A stretch of 64,000 nucleotides of DNA, taken from a virus. The notes under the pieces are model-generated. The model was not told the origin of the DNA, ran no database searches, and saw nothing but the letters and a program-made list of their open reading frames with translations. Shown here one piece after another: positions 3,728 through 31,565 of this stretch. Each line of letters opens with the position of its first letter. Position 1 is the first letter of the stretch. A program made the position numbers and the translations under genes. The DNA is taken from positions 1 through 64,000 of IMG/VR virus record IMGVR_UViG_3300017963_000235. The stretch is one strand, 5' to 3'.

Positions 3728-4011
3728 AATAGAGGATTCTCAGTAAAGGAGGTCGTTATGATTTCAGTTCAAAGTGTAGGTAATTATGGACGAGCAAAGA
3801 TTAATTCTATTGAGGGGGATGAGTACTTCTTTCCTGTAGTAGATGATAAACCGTATTCCTGTGTTTGTGAGACAAAAGACATAGCTCTCTTGATGGCTCT
3901 CCAAATCAAGTATGAGGGTCATAATTCTCAATTCGCCAAGATGGCTTGTAGAATGCTTGGTATTAAAAGTGCGTGGGCGGAATAATCGAGAATAGAGGAT
4001 CCTCAGAAAGG
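3728..4011 (+). repeat. imperfect direct repeat AATAGAGGATYCTCAG(T)AAAGG flanking ORF 3758-3985
   Basis: Copies at 3728-3749 and 3991-4011. Confidence 0.7.
3758..3985 (+). CDS. hypothetical protein
   Basis: SD AAAGGAGGT. Confidence 0.7.
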   Translation: MISVQSVGNYGRAKINSIEGDEYFFPVVDDKPYSCVCETKDIALLMALQIKYEGHNSQFAKMACRMLGIKSAWAE

Positions 4012-11920: not shown

Positions 11921-11940
11921 TAAATCAGGAGGTAAGAAAC

Positions 11941-20337: not shown

Positions 20338-21666
20338 ATGAAAATAATTGGATTTCAAATTGTAGGCATTAGAAAGATTAATCTGTTAGAAATGGAACTC
20401 ACCGATAAAGGTTTGATTCCTATTAAAGGAGGTAACAGGCAGGGTAAGACCACGATTCTTGATAGCCTTGAGATGCTCTTTATGGGCAAGAAGACTATCC
20501 CTGCTGATGTGGTTCAGAAAGGGCGTAAGAGAGGTAGGATTGAAGCTACCTTGGCTGATGGGGATGACACATATGTGATCACCAGAGAGATAGCCAAAGG
20601 GGGTAAAACTCGACTGAAGATTACCCAAAATGGTAAGGCCTTCAAGGATAAGCCGGAATCATTCCTCAAGTCCCTGGTAAACATTCTCACATTCGATCCC
20701 CGTCCTTTCATGGATAAATCTGATAAAGAGAAACTGTCATTTATGATGGAGCTCCTTAATATCGATCTCTCCGATTTGGAAACGGAACACGCGGAGACCT
20801 ATCAGGGGCGTAGGGATATTGGCAGAGACATCAAATCTATAGGGGATCTTGTTCCAGTTCCTAAGACAGAGAAGGTAGATGTTCAGAAGATTCTTCTTGA
20901 GAAGGAGAGAATCAAAGAGAGTAATGAAACTTGCCGTAAAGGGATTGAGGAATCTAACCAGGCGCTGCGGGATGAGATCTCCAAACGGCAGAAACATGAA
21001 TCAACCCTTGAATCACTTAAGGTAGAAAGGGGGCGGTTAGAGGAAGTGCTGAGGCAGGCACAATCAGATCTGGAGGTTGTGAAAGCTCGTATTGATAACG
21101 GGGAGAGGTATCTTGCTGATCAGCCCGATTTGGAAGAGCCTAAAGAGTTCATCCCGGAATCTACCGAGGAGCTGGATCAGAAACTTGCTAACGCTGCGGA
21201 GATTAATGAGAAGGCTAGCGCCTATGCTGCGTATCTAGAGCGTCGTAAGGAGAAGGAGGAGTTAGAGAATACCTATGACGATATGACGGAGGCTCTTGAG
21301 AGGATTAAAACCCGCAAACAGGAGAGATTGTTAAAGGCACCTCTTCCGGTTGAAGGCCTTCAGATTGTCATTGAGGATCCTGATAAAGAGGATGGGGTGT
21401 ACTTTAATGGGATTCATTCGGCTAACTGGAGTGAGGCTGAGAGTATGCGGATTTCCTCAGAGTTATGCCTTGGAATGCAGCCCGAACTAAGAGCTCTATT
21501 CATTGACCGGGGAGAGGCTTATGATCCTGAGGGGCTTAAACAGCTCGATACTTGGGCCAGAGATAAGGATCTTCAAGCTATCATAACGATGGTTTCTCCT
21601 ATCCCTGATGTGTTGGAGCCTGGAGTATTCTACATCGAAGAGGGAGAACTTCTTTCAAATCCTTAG
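20338..21666 (+). CDS. SMC/Rad50-like (AAA_23) coiled-coil ATPase
   Basis: Walker A GGNRQGKTT, long coiled coil, degenerate signature SEAE, Walker B region LFIDRGE. Confidence 0.85.
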   Translation: MKIIGFQIVGIRKINLLEMELTDKGLIPIKGGNRQGKTTILDSLEMLFMGKKTIPADVVQKGRKRGRIEATLADGDDTYVITREIAKGGKTRLKITQNGKAFKDKPESFLKSLVNILTFDPRPFMDKSDKEKLSFMMELLNIDLSDLETEHAETYQGRRDIGRDIKSIGDLVPVPKTEKVDVQKILLEKERIKESNETCRKGIEESNQALRDEISKRQKHESTLESLKVERGRLEEVLRQAQSDLEVVKARIDNGERYLADQPDLEEPKEFIPESTEELDQKLANAAEINEKASAYAAYLERRKEKEELENTYDDMTEALERIKTRKQERLLKAPLPVEGLQIVIEDPDKEDGVYFNGIHSANWSEAESMRISSELCLGMQPELRALFIDRGEAYDPEGLKQLDTWARDKDLQAIITMVSPIPDVLEPGVFYIEEGELLSNP

Positions 21667-21684: not shown

Positions 21685-21757
21685 AATTATCTCTTTTTCT
21701 GTTGACAATAAATTAGAGATGGGGTAGAACTAGATTAGTGAGGCAATGACGCCTCAC
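21685..21757 (+). promoter_or_regulatory. early-type promoter (TTGACA-17-TAGAAC) plus leader hairpin GTGAGGC-AATGAC-GCCTCAC
   Basis: TTGACA 21702-21707, TAGAAC 21725-21730, perfect 7-bp hairpin 21738-21757. Confidence 0.8.
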
Positions 21758-22359: not shown

Positions 22360-22432
22360 ATTTTTCTTTTTTCTCTTGACAATATTTCTCTATGTTCTAT
22401 AACTATAAGTAGTGAGGCAATGACGCAGCACT
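22360..22432 (+). promoter_or_regulatory. early-type promoter (TTGACA-16-TATAAC) plus leader hairpin
   Basis: TTGACA 22376-22381, TATAAC 22398-22403, AGTGAGGCAATGACGC shared with 21737. Confidence 0.8.
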
Positions 22433-22996: not shown

Positions 22997-23030
22997 GCAA
23001 TAAAGCGGAGTGTTTAAAGGAGATCGATTA

Positions 23031-23342
23031 ATGACTAAAGCCCAGATACTTAAACAACTCACAGATGCCGGTATTGAGACATCTCAGGTGAATCCTGTCG
23101 CCCTTAGGTACAATTCTCACAAAGGAGTGTGGGAGTCCATGAAAAATTATCCTAAGATTAAAATCGTCAATAATACCGTTGAGGTTGTGGTTACCGATAA
23201 GTACGGCGAGTGTGATATAGATGCTACAAACGATCTTATGGACCTGGTGAAGGATGCATTAGCAAGTAGCGCGACTTGGGACCCCTACACTAGAGTGTAT
23301 AAGGTTCCTGCTTGTAGAATGTGGGAAGTTTGTTCTTTTTAG
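23031..23342 (+). CDS. hypothetical protein
   Basis: SD AAAGGAG before ATG 23031. Confidence 0.65.
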   Translation: MTKAQILKQLTDAGIETSQVNPVALRYNSHKGVWESMKNYPKIKIVNNTVEVVVTDKYGECDIDATNDLMDLVKDALASSATWDPYTRVYKVPACRMWEVCSF

Positions 23343-23358
23343 ATTAGTTTAAAATTTC

Positions 23359-23722
23359 GGGCGTGAAATAGATTCGACATGGAAAGAGAGGATACTGATT
23401 GCACCCAAGAGAAGCGTGAGGCTCTTGTAAAACTCCACGTACCTAAATAATTCAGAACGATGAATTAAAACAAGCTGCCGCTTAGGTAGCCTCCCTAGAG
23501 TTGATTCCTGCTAGATTCTAGGGAGACATTAGCGGGATAGTGGATCAGAAAGACCTGGTAGGCGTTACACCTCTGAGACACGATAAAAGATCGCTTTGTT
23601 GTCTACCGGGAGATTGAGTTTGTTCGTTCGTAAATCTCCTACCAACACAAACGGACTATGGTGTAACGAGTCAGTATATTATTTTTCCGTGGACACCGGG
23701 GCAGTACCGGTCACGTCCACCA
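23359..23722 (+). ncRNA. ssrA: tmRNA (one-piece)
   Basis: 5' GGGCGTG-AAATAGATTCGAC; 3' CACGTCC-A-CCA giving a G3-U wobble; pseudoknot 1 CAAGAG/CTCTTG and CGTG/CACG; tag frame 23453-23485 QNDELKQAAA*. Confidence 0.95.
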
Positions 23723-23730
23723 TTGATAGG

Positions 23731-23898
23731 GTTAGTTGCTATGTGTCCTAGGGATTAGACTTACCTCCTTTAGTCTCCCTTGGAGAGCAACCTAACGATT
23801 ACAGTTTCCTCATTCCTGGGTCATTGACTGTAATTGTTTGAGATGAGCAAGAATACACTTTGCTGGTCTAAGGATTCGCGTCCCTGCCCTATCTCAAA
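23731..23898 (+). ncRNA. three back-to-back stem-loops downstream of tmRNA
   Basis: 23731-23796 (loop TACCTCCTTT), 23796-23836 (CGATTACAGTT/GACTGTAATTG), 23837-23898 (TTTGAGAT/ATCTCAAA). Confidence 0.55.
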
Positions 23899-23949
23899 TT
23901 TCTCTTGAAACTATTTCGAGAGTGGTTATCTTTTCAATAGGAGATCGTA

Positions 23950-24117
23950 ATGTTGCTTTTATTAACCCTCATCATAGCAATTCTAAACTGCTCTAGAGCT
24001 GTTGTGATATTCTTCCTTAACGCTGGGGGTATGTTCTACTCCATGAAGGAAGCTATAGGGCTCACTTCAACCAAACCCAAATGCTCTTTTAGAGTCTACA
24101 AGGAAGGCTTTCCTTAG
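23950..24117 (+). CDS. small hydrophobic protein (55 aa, not in ORF track)
   Basis: SD AGGAG, ATG 23950, MLLLLTLIIAILNCSRAVVIFFL...; possible promoter TTGAAA...TATCTT upstream. Confidence 0.45.
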   Translation: MLLLLTLIIAILNCSRAVVIFFLNAGGMFYSMKEAIGLTSTKPKCSFRVYKEGFP

Positions 24118-24126
24118 ATGCTATAT

Positions 24127-24350
24127 CGGGGTGTTAGCGTGAGCAGTCGTTAACCTCCCGCCCAAAACATCCAAACCCATAGCTTCGGTAACGGGGTTAT
24201 GGGTGGCGTATACAAAGTGTGGTTCCCATGATGAAGGATCAAAACCGCACCGTTTGCCCGCGTGAAGGGTGTAAGAAAATCCAGATGACCCAGTTAGAAT
24301 AGCGTTATGAGGTTATCAGGTCGTCCTAGGGTATGACGAAAACTACCCTT
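24127..24350 (+). ncRNA. unassigned multi-hairpin structured RNA preceding tRNA-Pro
   Basis: At least five stems, including ACCCATAGCTTCG-GTAA-CGGGGTTATGGGT, GTGTGGTT/AACCGCAC, GATGACC/GGTCGTC and AGGGTA/TACCCT. Confidence 0.5.
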
Positions 24351-24353
24351 TAT

Positions 24354-24427
24354 CGGAGTATAGCTCAGTCTGGTAGAGTACTCGGTTTGGGGCCGAGATG
24401 TCGTGGGTTCGGATCCCACTACTCCGA
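24354..24427 (+). tRNA. tRNA-Pro(TGG)
   Basis: Acceptor CGGAGTA/TACTCCG, D arm with TGG, anticodon arm CTCGG-TTTGGGG-CCGAG, T arm GTGGG-TTCGGAT-CCCAC; CCA not encoded. Confidence 0.93.
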
Positions 24428-24432
24428 CACTA

Positions 24433-24516
24433 GCCCGAATGGCGAAATTGGTAGACGCGACAGACTTAAAATCTGTTAAGAGAAATCTTGTATCGGTTCG
24501 ATTCCGATTTCGGGCA
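24433..24516 (+). tRNA. tRNA-Leu(TAA)
   Basis: Acceptor GCCCGAA/TTCGGGC, anticodon arm ACAGA-CTTAAAA-TCTGT, long variable arm, TTCGATT loop; CCA not encoded. Confidence 0.93.
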
Positions 24517-24552
24517 CTGTGTTATCGTCAGCACTTAACGGTGGAGGCGTCT

Positions 24553-24581
24553 AGGGCGAGGAGACTCGCCCATTTTTTTTT
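24553..24581 (+). terminator. intrinsic terminator closing the RNA island
   Basis: GGGCGAG-GAGA-CTCGCCC followed by A and a T run. Confidence 0.8.
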
Positions 24582-24596
24582 ACATGGAGGATCGTC

Positions 24597-24818
24597 ATGC
24601 TCACAACTATTTGGGTTAAAGAGTTAATAAAAGGCAAAGATACACCATTGAATCATGGGTCATTCGATGTCCCGTTTATCCCACACAAAGGGGATTACGT
24701 ATTTTTAAAGATGCACGTTAAAGGGGGCATGGGGCGGTACGAGGTTATTTCTAGATATTGGACTGAGAATTTCACAGCTTGTACTTTAGTTGTGGTGTTT
24801 CTTGACGAAGTGAAATAA
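24597..24818 (+). CDS. hypothetical protein
   Basis: SD GGAGG. Confidence 0.6.
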   Translation: MLTTIWVKELIKGKDTPLNHGSFDVPFIPHKGDYVFLKMHVKGGMGRYEVISRYWTENFTACTLVVVFLDEVK

Positions 24819-30638: not shown

Positions 30639-31565
30639 ATGGCGGTTATAAATTCGGTAACACCCAATCAAGGTATTTCTACAGGACGATATATTGTCGT
30701 AATTGACGGTAGTGGGTTTAGGATTCCGGATCTCCTACCTGGATCTGATACATGGCAAGAATCCGTTAGGGTTTGGGTAGATGGAAATCAAGTGGATTCT
30801 TCAGATGTGTTTGTGAGATCCGAAACCAAAATAGAATTCAGAATGGCCACCTCCTTTAGGCCTATTAGTCCCGATGCCGGAAATGATCCTTATGCTGTAG
30901 ATGTCAAAGTTCAGAATGTGGATGCTAATGGCGATCTTATTTTGGGATCTGATGATACCCTAGCAGACGGGTTTTCATATGTGAAGATAAGCACATCCAC
31001 AGATAGCATTACGGATTTGGTCACCCGAGAACTGGTTAGGTATTTGAGACGGAATCTTCCATTGCCTGTGTACTTGTTATCGCATGTAGATTACTCGACG
31101 GGTAGCGCCTCCCCTGTAGTGGACGGACCCGAACAGGCGAAGGAACCTTGTGTCTACTTAGAGGGACCAAGACGGGTTACTACTGGCGAAGGAACGCAGA
31201 GAGTAAGGAATACGTGGCCCGTTACAGGGCCGGAAACAAGATGGCTTCCTGAAGCTACCGATCTTGTTTTCGATATTGTACTGGAGAGCTCTAGAGGTGT
31301 TATTCTTCGTAATTTAATGCCGCGAATAGATACCCTGATACAGCATATACCGTTCATCATCCTTACCGTAATGGGGTCTGAATATAAGATGGATACCTTT
31401 ATGACTGATCGTATGTCTAAGGATGCGGATATTCTATTTGGGTCAAGTTTACAACAGGCATCAGGAGCGTTAAAAATAGAGAGTGTTCCTTTGGAGACGG
31501 ATATTATCCGACTGAATAAGGACATAACCGATATTGTAATCACGATTGGAGAGTTAAATGTCTAA
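30639..31565 (+). CDS. IPT/TIG-domain protein, probable tail terminator
   Basis: INSVTPNQG.STG...VIDGSGF...GFSY; located just before the sheath. Confidence 0.6.
   Translation: MAVINSVTPNQGISTGRYIVVIDGSGFRIPDLLPGSDTWQESVRVWVDGNQVDSSDVFVRSETKIEFRMATSFRPISPDAGNDPYAVDVKVQNVDANGDLILGSDDTLADGFSYVKISTSTDSITDLVTRELVRYLRRNLPLPVYLLSHVDYSTGSASPVVDGPEQAKEPCVYLEGPRRVTTGEGTQRVRNTWPVTGPETRWLPEATDLVFDIVLESSRGVILRNLMPRIDTLIQHIPFIILTVMGSEYKMDTFMTDRMSKDADILFGSSLQQASGALKIESVPLETDIIRLNKDITDIVITIGELNV

What the first reader, a model, noticed from the sequence alone, without database searches (positions are those of the whole stretch)
23731..23898. Tandem stem-loops after tmRNA, one displaying an anti-Shine-Dalgarno loop
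Seen: three abutting hairpins directly 3' of the tmRNA CCA. The first (GTTAG-TTGCT/AGCAA-C-CTAAC, AGGGA/TCCCT, AGACT/AGTCT) exposes UACCUCCUUU, essentially the 16S rRNA anti-SD (ACCUCCUU). It matches 10 nt of this phage's own early RBSs (TAAAGGAGGT at 3744, AGGAGGTAAG at 11927). The second hairpin exposes UCCUCAUUCCUGGGUCAUU. The opposite strand has no start codon after the AAAGGAGGT, so this is not simply a reverse-strand RBS. Inference: RNAs released during tmRNA 3' processing that mask ribosome-binding sites (host shut-off or an early-to-late switch). With tmRNA and the tRNAs they would form an RNA-based translation-control island.
Basis: partly seen in the sequence, partly recalled or inferred. 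Interest (0 to 1): 0.8.

Follow-up and report, generated by a model that had tools for sequence, protein, structure and literature searches.

The report
Folded RNA domain behind phage tmRNA
Right after a marine phage's ribosome-rescue RNA gene, 169 bases fold into one compact four-hairpin RNA domain with an open loop that mirrors ribosome-binding sites, but no relative was found, so a role in translation control is untested.

Summary
The hairpins are real. The tmRNA at 23359-23722 is genuine: Rfam scores it 72.6 bits in a local search, though ARAGORN and two filtered searches missed it. Two bases after its CCA, 23725-23893 (+) folds as one closed 169-nt domain: an 8-bp closing helix around four hairpins, not three loose hairpins. 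MFE is -59.5 kcal/mol and z is -4.56, against z -2.35 on the minus strand. It ranks 12th of 3381 genome windows. The loop UACCUCCUUU stays unpaired (p at least 0.86) in every context tested.

The anti-SD reading has no positive support:
- The 8-mer occurs on the + strand at about chance rate.
- Only 2 of 44 GGAGG-type RBSs match 10 nt, so there is no private early-gene tag.
- No Rfam family matches.
- No homolog was found in any collection, so covariation could not be tested.
- No RNA data exist.

My best reading is a stable structured RNA cut from a tmRNA-tRNA precursor, like T4 RNAC/RNAD, with its function open.

The scan has noted anti-RBS loops beside phage tmRNAs and early operons on other DNA (unchecked AI notes). 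This case is a weaker, generic-SD version of those.

The parts
23359..23722 (+). One-piece tmRNA with encoded CCA
   Evidence: Rfam RF00023, 72.6 bits, E 4.9e-28, full model. Missed.
23723..23724 (+). UU linker between the tmRNA CCA and the domain. Inferred site of the endonuclease cut.
   Evidence: Unpaired in the MFE and centroid structures. The cut itself is inference.
23725..23893 (+). The element: a 169-nt closed five-way-junction RNA domain
   Evidence: MFE -59.5 kcal/mol, z -4.56, 0 of 200 shuffles as good. Minus strand: -47.7 kcal/mol, z -2.35. Same fold in contexts up to 1222 nt. Rank 12 of 3381 windows.
23725..23732 (+). P1, 5' strand. Pairs with 23886-23893.
   Evidence: Pair probabilities 0.87-1.00 in four contexts.
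23735..23791 (+). Hairpin A, bulged, about 17 pairs
   Evidence: -18.2 kcal/mol when folded alone.
23762..23771 (+). Loop A, UACCUCCUUU: the anti-SD-like word
   Evidence: Unpaired probability 0.86-1.00 per base. One of 2 copies of ACCTCCTT on the + strand.
23792..23840 (+). Hairpin B, with a 13-bp stem and a 21-nt pyrimidine-rich loop
   Evidence: -15.4 kcal/mol alone. Inverted repeat I10.
23841..23869 (+). Hairpin C
   Evidence: -9.7 kcal/mol alone.
23872..23883 (+). Hairpin D: 4 bp, weak, with a partial T-arm look
   Evidence: -1.6 kcal/mol alone. No tRNA or tmRNA model hit.
23886..23893 (+). P1, 3' strand
23899..23932 (+). T-rich box plus promoter-like TTGAAA-16-TATCTT, overlapping a 9-bp hairpin at 23902-23922
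   Evidence: promoter-like and weak terminator-like site. repeat D3, shares 17 of 19 nt with the box at 22370. Searches show the same box before TTGACA at two upstream promoters.
23950..24117 (+). 55-codon ORF, hydrophobic, with an AGGAG 6 nt before its ATG. Context only.
   Evidence: No PHROG family.
24118..24353 (+). Second folded non-coding stretch, ending flush with the tRNA-Pro 5' end. Context only.
   Evidence: MFE -78.5 kcal/mol, z -3.48. No Rfam hit.
24354..24517 (+). tRNA-Pro(UGG) and tRNA-Leu(UAA), 4 nt apart, neither with encoded CCA
   Evidence: Sequence.
24554..24580 (+). Intrinsic terminator (7 pairs, 6 of them G-C, then T9). Likely end of the RNA operon.

Best explanation
Positions 23725-23893 encode one self-contained folded RNA domain of 169 nt: an 8-bp closing helix around four hairpins. 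It belongs to a stable-RNA operon with this order: tmRNA, 2 nt, the domain, a promoter-like box, a 55-codon ORF, a second folded RNA, tRNA-Pro, tRNA-Leu, terminator.

Most likely it is made as the 3' trailer of the tmRNA precursor. A host endonuclease would cut in the two-base UU linker. That cut leaves tmRNA with a 3' end that needs only light trimming to its encoded CCA. The compact, helix-closed domain then persists as a small stable RNA, much like RNAC and RNAD from the phage T4 tRNA region.

Its only visible working surfaces are the permanently open pyrimidine loops, so pairing with purine-rich SD regions is its most plausible trans activity. That step is not shown.

Shown: the fold, its strand preference, its autonomy and its boundaries. 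Inferred: co-transcription, the cut, the stability and any trans action.
For: Fold:
- z -4.56 with 0 of 200 shuffles as good; the same fold with flanks included, z -4.56.
- The + strand folds 11.8 kcal/mol better than the minus strand.
- P1 probability is 0.87-1.00 and the loops are unchanged when 169 to 1222 nt of context are folded.
- Rank 12 of 3381 windows genome-wide.

Boundaries: the domain starts 2 nt after CCA and ends 5 nt before a T-rich promoter-like box that recurs at 21690 and 22370.

Non-coding: no ORF of 25 aa or more lies inside on either strand.

Operon: the + strand holds tmRNA and two tRNAs. No convincing terminator appears before 24554, and no promoter-like site was found just upstream of tmRNA.

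[quoted passage not shown] They were validated by Northern blot as late RNAs (PMC9697503, passages). A marine phage carries a folded regulatory RNA joined to its tmRNA gene (PMC9004378, passages).
Against: - No homolog of the domain was found anywhere, so not one base pair is backed by covariation.
- No RNA run holds the locus, so no transcript, end or abundance is known.
- Other windows of this genome fold as well: 11 windows rank higher.
- A simple hairpin would be enough for a processing signal, and thermodynamic folds of single sequences are often partly wrong.
- Ten other one-piece phage tmRNAs with the same T-loop have unrelated 3' flanks: a gene start, a terminator, or other hairpins. 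Such a domain is therefore not a general need of phage tmRNA.
- A promoter-like site at 23905-23932 means downstream genes need not depend on read-through.
Confidence: 0.45

Rival explanations
1. The RNA, whole or as hairpins, acts in trans: loop A (with loop B) pairs with Shine-Dalgarno sequences and masks ribosome-binding sites. This would shut off host translation or switch from early to late translation, as UCCC-loop sRNAs do in Bacillota.
For: - The loop UACCUCCUUU is fully open.
- The phage uses SD-led starts.
- Predicted loop-RBS duplexes reach -12 to -14.6 kcal/mol for 15 of 125 crude gene calls.
- SDs are stronger in the left arm (57 calls, median -8.7 kcal/mol) than in the structural module (46 calls, median -6.9), Mann-Whitney p 0.02. 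A generic anti-SD RNA would therefore hit the left-arm genes harder.
- The mechanism has precedent: unpaired UCCC motifs of RsaE and RNAIII bind SDs and block initiation (PMC2790875, abstract and passages).
Against: - The complement is only the generic SD. Of 44 GGAGG-type RBSs, 2 match 10 nt and 1 matches 9 nt, and the flanks show no consensus.
- The 8-mer is at chance frequency on the + strand.
- The best 12-nt site is inside coding sequence.
- Gene starts were chosen partly by SD score, so that comparison is crude.
- A generic anti-SD RNA would have to compete with the far more abundant 16S 3' ends (my own reasoning).
- 74 other tmRNA genes show no excess of the motif downstream.
- No conservation or expression data exist.
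Confidence: 0.15
2. A purely cis-acting processing and stability module. The hairpins are endonuclease sites (RNase III/E type) and a barrier that separates the folding and decay of tmRNA from the downstream message. The excised piece is then degraded and has no function of its own.
For: - It sits exactly between the CCA and the next promoter-like box.
- It folds independently of its flanks.
- tmRNA encodes its CCA, so it needs a downstream cut (sequence; the processing logic is recalled knowledge of E. coli tmRNA and tRNA maturation).
- Other phage tmRNAs are followed by assorted hairpins.
Against: - A 169-nt, 56-pair five-way junction is far more than a cleavage site needs in a gene-dense phage.
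- Several other phage tmRNAs do without it: in L257 a gene starts 22 nt after CCA, and L313 has a plain terminator.
Confidence: 0.2
3. A cis-regulatory leader, riboswitch-like or protein-binding, that controls the 55-codon ORF and the downstream RNAs through the weak terminator-like hairpin at 23902-23922.
For: - A junction-type fold lies upstream of a small ORF.
- The segment just after P1 (23892-23899) can pair with the same 3' arm as 23902-23910, which allows alternative structures (my reading; hairpin).
- A marine phage has a glutamine riboswitch attached to its tmRNA gene (PMC9004378, passages).
Against: - No riboswitch or leader family matches, even at E up to 10 on a 188-nt query.
- A promoter-like site lies between the domain and the ORF, so the ORF may have its own short leader.
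- The ORF has no known family.
- The alternative pairing is short.
Confidence: 0.07
4. No function. The stretch is fortuitously foldable spacer or a decayed RNA gene, and the anti-SD word is there by chance.
For: - It is a single copy with no homolog in 348 loci and 4 related records.
- The motif is at chance frequency.
- 11 other windows rank higher in the fold scan.
Against: - z -4.56 together with a strand asymmetry.
- An 8-bp closing helix, 7 Watson-Crick pairs plus 1 G-U, placed exactly at the edges of the non-coding gap. My rough estimate of its chance is 0.005-0.09.
- Location inside an RNA-gene island of a compact genome.
Confidence: 0.13

Closest known systems
RNAC and RNAD, small stable RNAs encoded in the phage T4 tRNA region
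   Same: Non-coding, folded RNAs of 100-plus nt, encoded among a lytic phage's stable-RNA genes and co-transcribed with them, with function unknown (PMC3014915 passage; PMC9697503 passages).
   Different: No sequence comparison with T4 was made here. The T4 RNAs lie beside tRNAs, not a tmRNA. Their transcripts have been shown; this one has not.
C-rich / UCCC-loop base-pairing sRNAs of Bacillota (RsaE, RNAIII hairpins, LhrC)
   Same: Pyrimidine-rich words displayed in unpaired hairpin loops that are complementary to SD sequences (PMC2790875 abstract and passages; PMC4132741 seen only in the search listing).
   Different: No Rfam match to any such family. Here the word is a full 8-10-nt anti-SD rather than UCCC. 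The RNA has no promoter or terminator of its own and lies in a tmRNA precursor. Conservation and targets are unknown.
Folded RNA joined to a marine phage tmRNA gene (glutamine riboswitch in the ssrA 3' domain of OM43 phage Melnitz)
   Same: A marine phage with a structured non-tmRNA element attached to its tmRNA gene (PMC9004378 passages).
   Different: Melnitz has a two-piece tmRNA and a known glnA-type riboswitch. Here the tmRNA is one-piece and the domain matches no riboswitch model.
Anti-RBS loop hairpins of uncultured phages noted earlier in this scan (for example e1-5993731, e1-6037924, e1-5407256). These are unpublished and unchecked AI notes.
   Same: A hairpin at the end of a phage tmRNA or early transcript whose loop is complementary to ribosome-binding sites.
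   Different: Those notes describe a private RBS tag shared by many early genes, sometimes co-varying with the loop. Here only the generic SD core is mirrored: 2 of 44 RBSs reach 10 nt. No relative was available.

Membership tests
UCCC / anti-SD loop sRNAs (RsaE, RNAIII, LhrC type) | C/U-rich motif unpaired in a hairpin loop | tested here: met
   Loop A is unpaired with p 0.86-1.00 in four contexts.
UCCC / anti-SD loop sRNAs (RsaE, RNAIII, LhrC type) | Motif lies in the most conserved part of the RNA across relatives | tested here: inconclusive
UCCC / anti-SD loop sRNAs (RsaE, RNAIII, LhrC type) | Pairs with the SD of defined target mRNAs and blocks initiation | not testable with these tools
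   Only generic complementarity could be computed.
UCCC / anti-SD loop sRNAs (RsaE, RNAIII, LhrC type) | Match to a curated model of such a family | tested here: not met
   No such Rfam hit at E up to 10.
Phage stable RNAs of tRNA clusters (T4 RNAC/RNAD kind) | Non-coding, and encoded within the stable-RNA gene cluster on the same strand | tested here: met
Phage stable RNAs of tRNA clusters (T4 RNAC/RNAD kind) | Discrete, stable processed transcript | not testable with these tools
   No RNA run is listed for the locus.
tRNA-like / tmRNA TLD-only RNAs | Acceptor helix stacked on a canonical T-arm (5-bp stem, 7-nt T-loop with its conserved closing pair and reverse-Hoogsteen pair; features recalled), plus a CCA or discriminator end | tested here: not met
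   P1 (8 bp) next to hairpin D only looks like this. In the T-arm register 3 of 5 stem pairs form and one conserved T-loop position is wrong (my reading). ARAGORN makes no call over the element on the + strand even at relaxed thresholds. No tRNA or tmRNA model hit on 23718-23905.
Intrinsic terminator of the tmRNA gene | G+C-rich hairpin followed by a U run | tested here: not met
   No terminator-like site lies within 23725-23893. The nearest is a weak one at 23902-23922 with 3 G-C pairs and a broken T run. The strong one is at 24554.
Known riboswitches and leaders, including glnA/glutamine-type as in phage Melnitz | Match to the family's covariance model | tested here: not met
   Searches returned only noise (miRNA and snoRNA models, E 2.9-9).
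Phage anti-RBS loops that mirror a private early-gene RBS tag (earlier notes of this scan) | Loop complement extends beyond the SD core to a leader shared by many early genes | tested here: not met
   Of 44 GGAGG-type RBSs, 2 match 10 nt, 1 matches 9 nt and 1 matches 8 nt; all others match 7 or fewer. No flank consensus.

The most novel reading that the evidence does not exclude
The phage makes, from the same precursor as its tmRNA, a compact 169-nt five-way-junction RNA. Its open loop mimics the 16S rRNA 3' tail and titrates strong Shine-Dalgarno sites, or a factor that reads them. This would tilt translation away from the strong-SD left-arm genes and the host, towards the weaker-SD structural genes. 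It would be one member of a still undescribed, widespread class of anti-RBS RNAs that lytic phages attach to tmRNA, tRNA and early operons.
Probability: 0.12. Interest if true: 0.75.

Novelty: new member of a known kind. Interest (0 to 1): 0.36.

Why it matters
Phage tmRNA and tRNA clusters are usually annotated gene by gene, and the folded RNA between the genes is ignored. The two T4 examples have had no known function for decades.

This is a clean, sharply bounded candidate of that kind. It sits next to a tmRNA and has an obvious testable surface, the open anti-SD loop. If it were shown to be stable and active, it would link ribosome rescue, tRNA supply and initiation control in one phage operon.

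As it stands it is a well-defined structural prediction in a phage with no cultured host and no sequenced close relative within reach. Its value is as a target for mapping once relatives or a host appear.

It also gives a practical warning. The tmRNA itself was missed by ARAGORN and by two filtered Rfam searches, so negative tmRNA calls in divergent phages are unreliable.

Tried and rejected
HOMOLOG SEARCHES THAT FOUND NOTHING
- blastn 'distant' of 23300-24600 against 50,697 phage records gave only tRNA hits.
- An exact 31-mer of hairpin A found 0 in IMG/VR.
- Neighbour proteins as single queries found no relative in IMG/VR.
- The tail sheath gave 9 loci at 35-44% identity. These have no tRNA or tmRNA by ARAGORN, and 3 of them have no Rfam hit at E up to 0.1. 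One tRNA and no tmRNA lie in the complete 110-kb relative.
- The Rfam tmRNA search of 5 relatives' records was negative. It is uninformative, because the same search misses the tmRNA in the own record.
- An alignment of 23 ATPase homologs gave 80 IMG/VR loci and 80 metagenome loci at 35% identity or less. nhmmer and blastn found nothing for the tmRNA or the element.
- T-loop/acceptor patterns returned mostly two-piece alphaproteobacterial-type tmRNAs and 10 one-piece ones. Those are 44-49% identical to this tmRNA and have unrelated 3' flanks.
- A two-loop pattern found 0 in IMG/VR. It found 7 in genome contigs, close to my rough chance estimate. All 7 are reverse-strand RBS-plus-start-codon look-alikes, and none fits the model.
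- Covariance model R1, built from this one sequence, was run over 348 loci plus the window, 3.87 Mb in all, and over 4 relatives' records. It found only itself, plus L007 (10.9 bits, E 1.7) and L176 (13.9 bits, E 0.37). The L176 alignment has an unpaired P1 and no anti-SD loop.

SEQUENCING RUNS
- No RNA holder is listed.
- Two DNA runs, one sediment and one seawater metagenome, hold the stretch. Their contigs have identical lengths and show no variant in 23013-24290, so there is no microdiversity to read.

IDEAS REJECTED
- Reverse-strand RBS: no start codon and no ORF.
- tRNA or tRNA-with-intron: one search gives only noise at relaxed thresholds.
- Terminator.
- Known ncRNA or riboswitch.
- General link between tmRNA 3' flanks and anti-SD words: 74 de-duplicated tmRNA loci, CCTCC 5 seen against 6.2 expected. 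This sample is mostly two-piece genes, and many may be host genes at provirus ends.
- A genome-wide z-score scan with shuffles was too slow and stopped at 13.1 kb. It was replaced by the GC-corrected MFE scan.

LITERATURE
- 'phage-encoded tmRNA' returned 0 papers.
- Four terms on anti-SD phage small RNAs returned 1 unrelated review.
- 'tmRNA' + 'bacteriophage genome' + 'tRNA' returned 464 papers. Only the 20 listed titles and abstract starts were seen.
- T4 'stable RNA' + 'species 1' returned 0.
- I found no paper on RNAs trailing phage tmRNAs, but these searches are not exhaustive. Supplements were closed and were not asked for.

TOOLS NOT USED: complex prediction, structure tools, the protein-atlas search.
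Full report
WHAT IS THERE

The window is the first 64 kb of an 84,681-bp uncultured virus record. It is a tailed phage with sheath, tape-measure and baseplate genes. Near-identical DNA is held by a sediment and a seawater metagenome run.

A local Rfam search gives RF00023 at 23359-23722: 72.6 bits against a gathering score of 47, E 4.9e-28, full model length. ARAGORN, the whole-window gathering scan and the genome-level family search all missed it. It ends in an encoded CCA at 23722.

Downstream on the same strand lie:
- a 55-codon ORF (23950-24117);
- a second non-coding stretch that folds strongly (24118-24353, z -3.48) and ends flush with tRNA-Pro;
- tRNA-Pro and tRNA-Leu, neither with an encoded CCA;
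- the only convincing intrinsic terminator, at 24554-24580.

THE OBSERVATION

23725-23893 folds as one closed domain: an 8-bp helix P1 (23725-32 with 23886-93) encloses hairpins A (23735-91), B (23792-840), C (23841-69) and D (23872-83). MFE is -59.5 kcal/mol and z is -4.56, with none of 200 dinucleotide shuffles as stable.

The minus strand folds 11.8 kcal/mol worse, with z -2.35. So the G-U pairs favour the strand that carries the tmRNA and the tRNAs.

The fold is autonomous. With 169, 521, 607 or 1222 nt of context, the P1 pair probabilities stay at 0.87-1.00 and every base of loop A (UACCUCCUUU, 23762-71) stays unpaired at 0.86-1.00.

In a GC-corrected MFE scan of the whole record, the element ranks 12th of 3381 windows. 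That is unusual but not unique.

The domain begins 2 nt after CCA. It ends 5 nt before a T-rich box with a promoter-like TTGAAA-16-TATCTT. That box resembles those in front of two upstream TTGACA promoters.

Nothing of 25 codons or more is open inside it on either strand. No start codon follows the SD-like word on the minus strand (sequence).

THE ANTI-SD WORD

ACCTCCTT occurs twice on the + strand of the window; the other copy, at 30849, lies in a gene. Both strands together give 7 against 3.1 +/- 1.7 in shuffles, and five of the seven are ordinary SDs read on +. Genome-wide, the + strand has 58 CCTCC and 12 ACCTCC. The word itself is therefore no rarer than chance. What stands out is its placement in the apical loop of the strongest hairpin of an RNA island.

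Of 44 GGAGG sites followed by a start that opens 45 or more codons, 2 match the loop mirror over 10 nt, 1 over 9, 1 over 8 and the rest over 5-7. The flanks show no consensus.

The longest complement, 12 nt at 20424, lies in the Walker-A codons of the SbcC-like ATPase gene.

Crude gene calls give somewhat stronger SDs in the left arm than in the structural module: medians -8.7 against -6.9 kcal/mol, p 0.02. This is compatible with differential sensitivity to an anti-SD RNA. It is also what translational coupling in structural operons would give.

IDENTITY SEARCHES

No Rfam family matches the element at E up to 10, on either a 1.2-kb or a 188-nt query. ARAGORN sees no tRNA-like gene there on the + strand, even at relaxed thresholds.

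P1 next to hairpin D superficially recalls an acceptor/T-arm stack. In that register, however, only 3 of 5 stem pairs form and a conserved T-loop position is wrong, so I do not file it as tRNA-like.

RELATIVES

No close relative is within reach:
- The best tail-sheath matches in IMG/VR are 35-44% identical. Nine such loci hold no tRNA or tmRNA, three of them have no Rfam hit, and the complete 110-kb relative has one tRNA and no tmRNA beside it.
- 160 loci found with the ATPase alignment are 35% identical or less and lack anything like the tmRNA or the element.
- Pattern scans for tmRNAs with the same unusual T-loop gave mostly two-piece genes and ten one-piece genes. Those ten are 44-49% identical to this tmRNA, and their 3' flanks are a gene start, a plain terminator or unrelated hairpins.
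- A covariance model of the element found only itself in 3.87 Mb of fetched loci and in four relatives' records. The two weak hits, at E 0.37 and 1.7, do not hold up.
- A two-loop pattern gave 0 hits in IMG/VR and 7 chance look-alikes in 596 Gb of genomes.
- In 74 de-duplicated tmRNA loci, the 200 nt downstream hold CCTCC 5 times against 6.2 expected. I see no general association in that sample, which is biased and mostly two-piece.

The two DNA runs show no variants, and no RNA run is listed.

WHAT IT MOST LIKELY IS

The fold, strand bias, autonomy, exact boundaries and RNA-gene neighbourhood make a real structured RNA domain likely. I put that at about two in three, summing the readings in which it is functional.

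Its size and closure argue against a mere cleavage hairpin.

I therefore favour, at 0.45, a small stable RNA cut out of the tmRNA-tRNA precursor at the UU linker. That cut would also hand tmRNA a nearly mature 3' end.

The nearest precedent is RNAC/RNAD of the T4 tRNA region. Their roles are still unknown (PMC3014915 passage; PMC9697503 passages).

SD masking by the open loop is mechanistically precedented by UCCC-loop sRNAs (PMC2790875 passages). It is the most concrete idea for a trans function, but nothing here raises it above 0.15.

The other rivals are a purely cis processing and stability module (0.20), a cis leader for the small ORF (0.07) and no function (0.13).

RELATION TO EARLIER NOTES OF THIS SCAN

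Other agents have noted anti-RBS or anti-SD loops beside phage tmRNAs, tRNA operons and early transcripts in several unrelated uncultured phages. Some of those notes report loop and RBS tag changing together. These are unchecked AI notes. I used them only as leads.

The test they suggested is whether a private RBS tag is mirrored by the loop. It is not met here. This locus is at best a generic-SD variant of that theme.

VERDICT

This is a new, uncatalogued member of a known kind: folded small RNAs in phage stable-RNA clusters. Interest is moderate to low until a relative or a transcript is available.

Noticed in passing
window 23359-23722: The tmRNA is found only by a local Rfam search (72.6 bits). 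ARAGORN, the whole-window gathering scan and the genome search on the own record all miss it. Negative tmRNA calls on divergent phage records, such, are therefore unreliable.
   Followed up: yes
window 24118-24353: A second ORF-free stretch folds strongly (-78.5 kcal/mol, z -3.48). It includes a 13-bp stem, and a terminal helix ends flush with the tRNA-Pro 5' end. It has no Rfam match. It contains ACCUCCC, but that word is paired in the MFE structure.
   Followed up: partly
window 23899-23932, 22370-22405 and 21690-21730: A T-rich box (TTTCTCTTGA...) precedes a -35-like hexamer at three places. The copy at 23899 sits directly after the element and overlaps a 9-bp hairpin. It may be the promoter of the 55-codon ORF and of the tRNAs.
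   Followed up: partly
window 20424-20435: The longest perfect complement of loop A (12 nt) lies inside the SbcC-like ATPase gene, in the codons of its Walker-A region. No start codon follows. It is probably driven by the coding sequence.
   Followed up: yes
L305, L307, L316 and L338 (IMG/VR contigs of 130-204 kb; L338 is 10 kb): These are one-piece tmRNAs with the same GGCAGTA T-loop. Within about 20 nt of their CCA they are followed by a near-repeat of their own 3' acceptor strand (CACCTCCAC or CATCTCCAC). In the MFE fold that repeat forms the 5' arm of a hairpin.
   Followed up: no
L312, about 55-70 nt after the tmRNA CCA: A second ...GGCTCCACCA word follows two hairpins. It looks like a duplicated tmRNA 3' end.
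   Followed up: no
My rough chance estimate for two stretches of about 230 nt is 0.05. Both partners are partly engaged in local pairs in the MFE folds.
   Followed up: partly
whole record G000: In crude gene calls, the left arm (1-23.3 kb, 57 calls) has stronger SDs than the structural module (24.6-64 kb, 46 calls): medians -8.7 against -6.9 kcal/mol, p 0.02.
   Followed up: partly
runs X1 and X2: The two runs that hold the locus give contigs of identical lengths (25095 and 6929) and nearly equal depths. They are filed under different studies and years, and may be one data set filed twice.
   Followed up: no
window 18826, 20101, 14176, 12926, 29926 and 33451; G000 67776 and 81726: These other 170-nt windows fold as well as or better than the element in the GC-corrected scan. 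They may hold further RNA elements or terminators.
   Followed up: no
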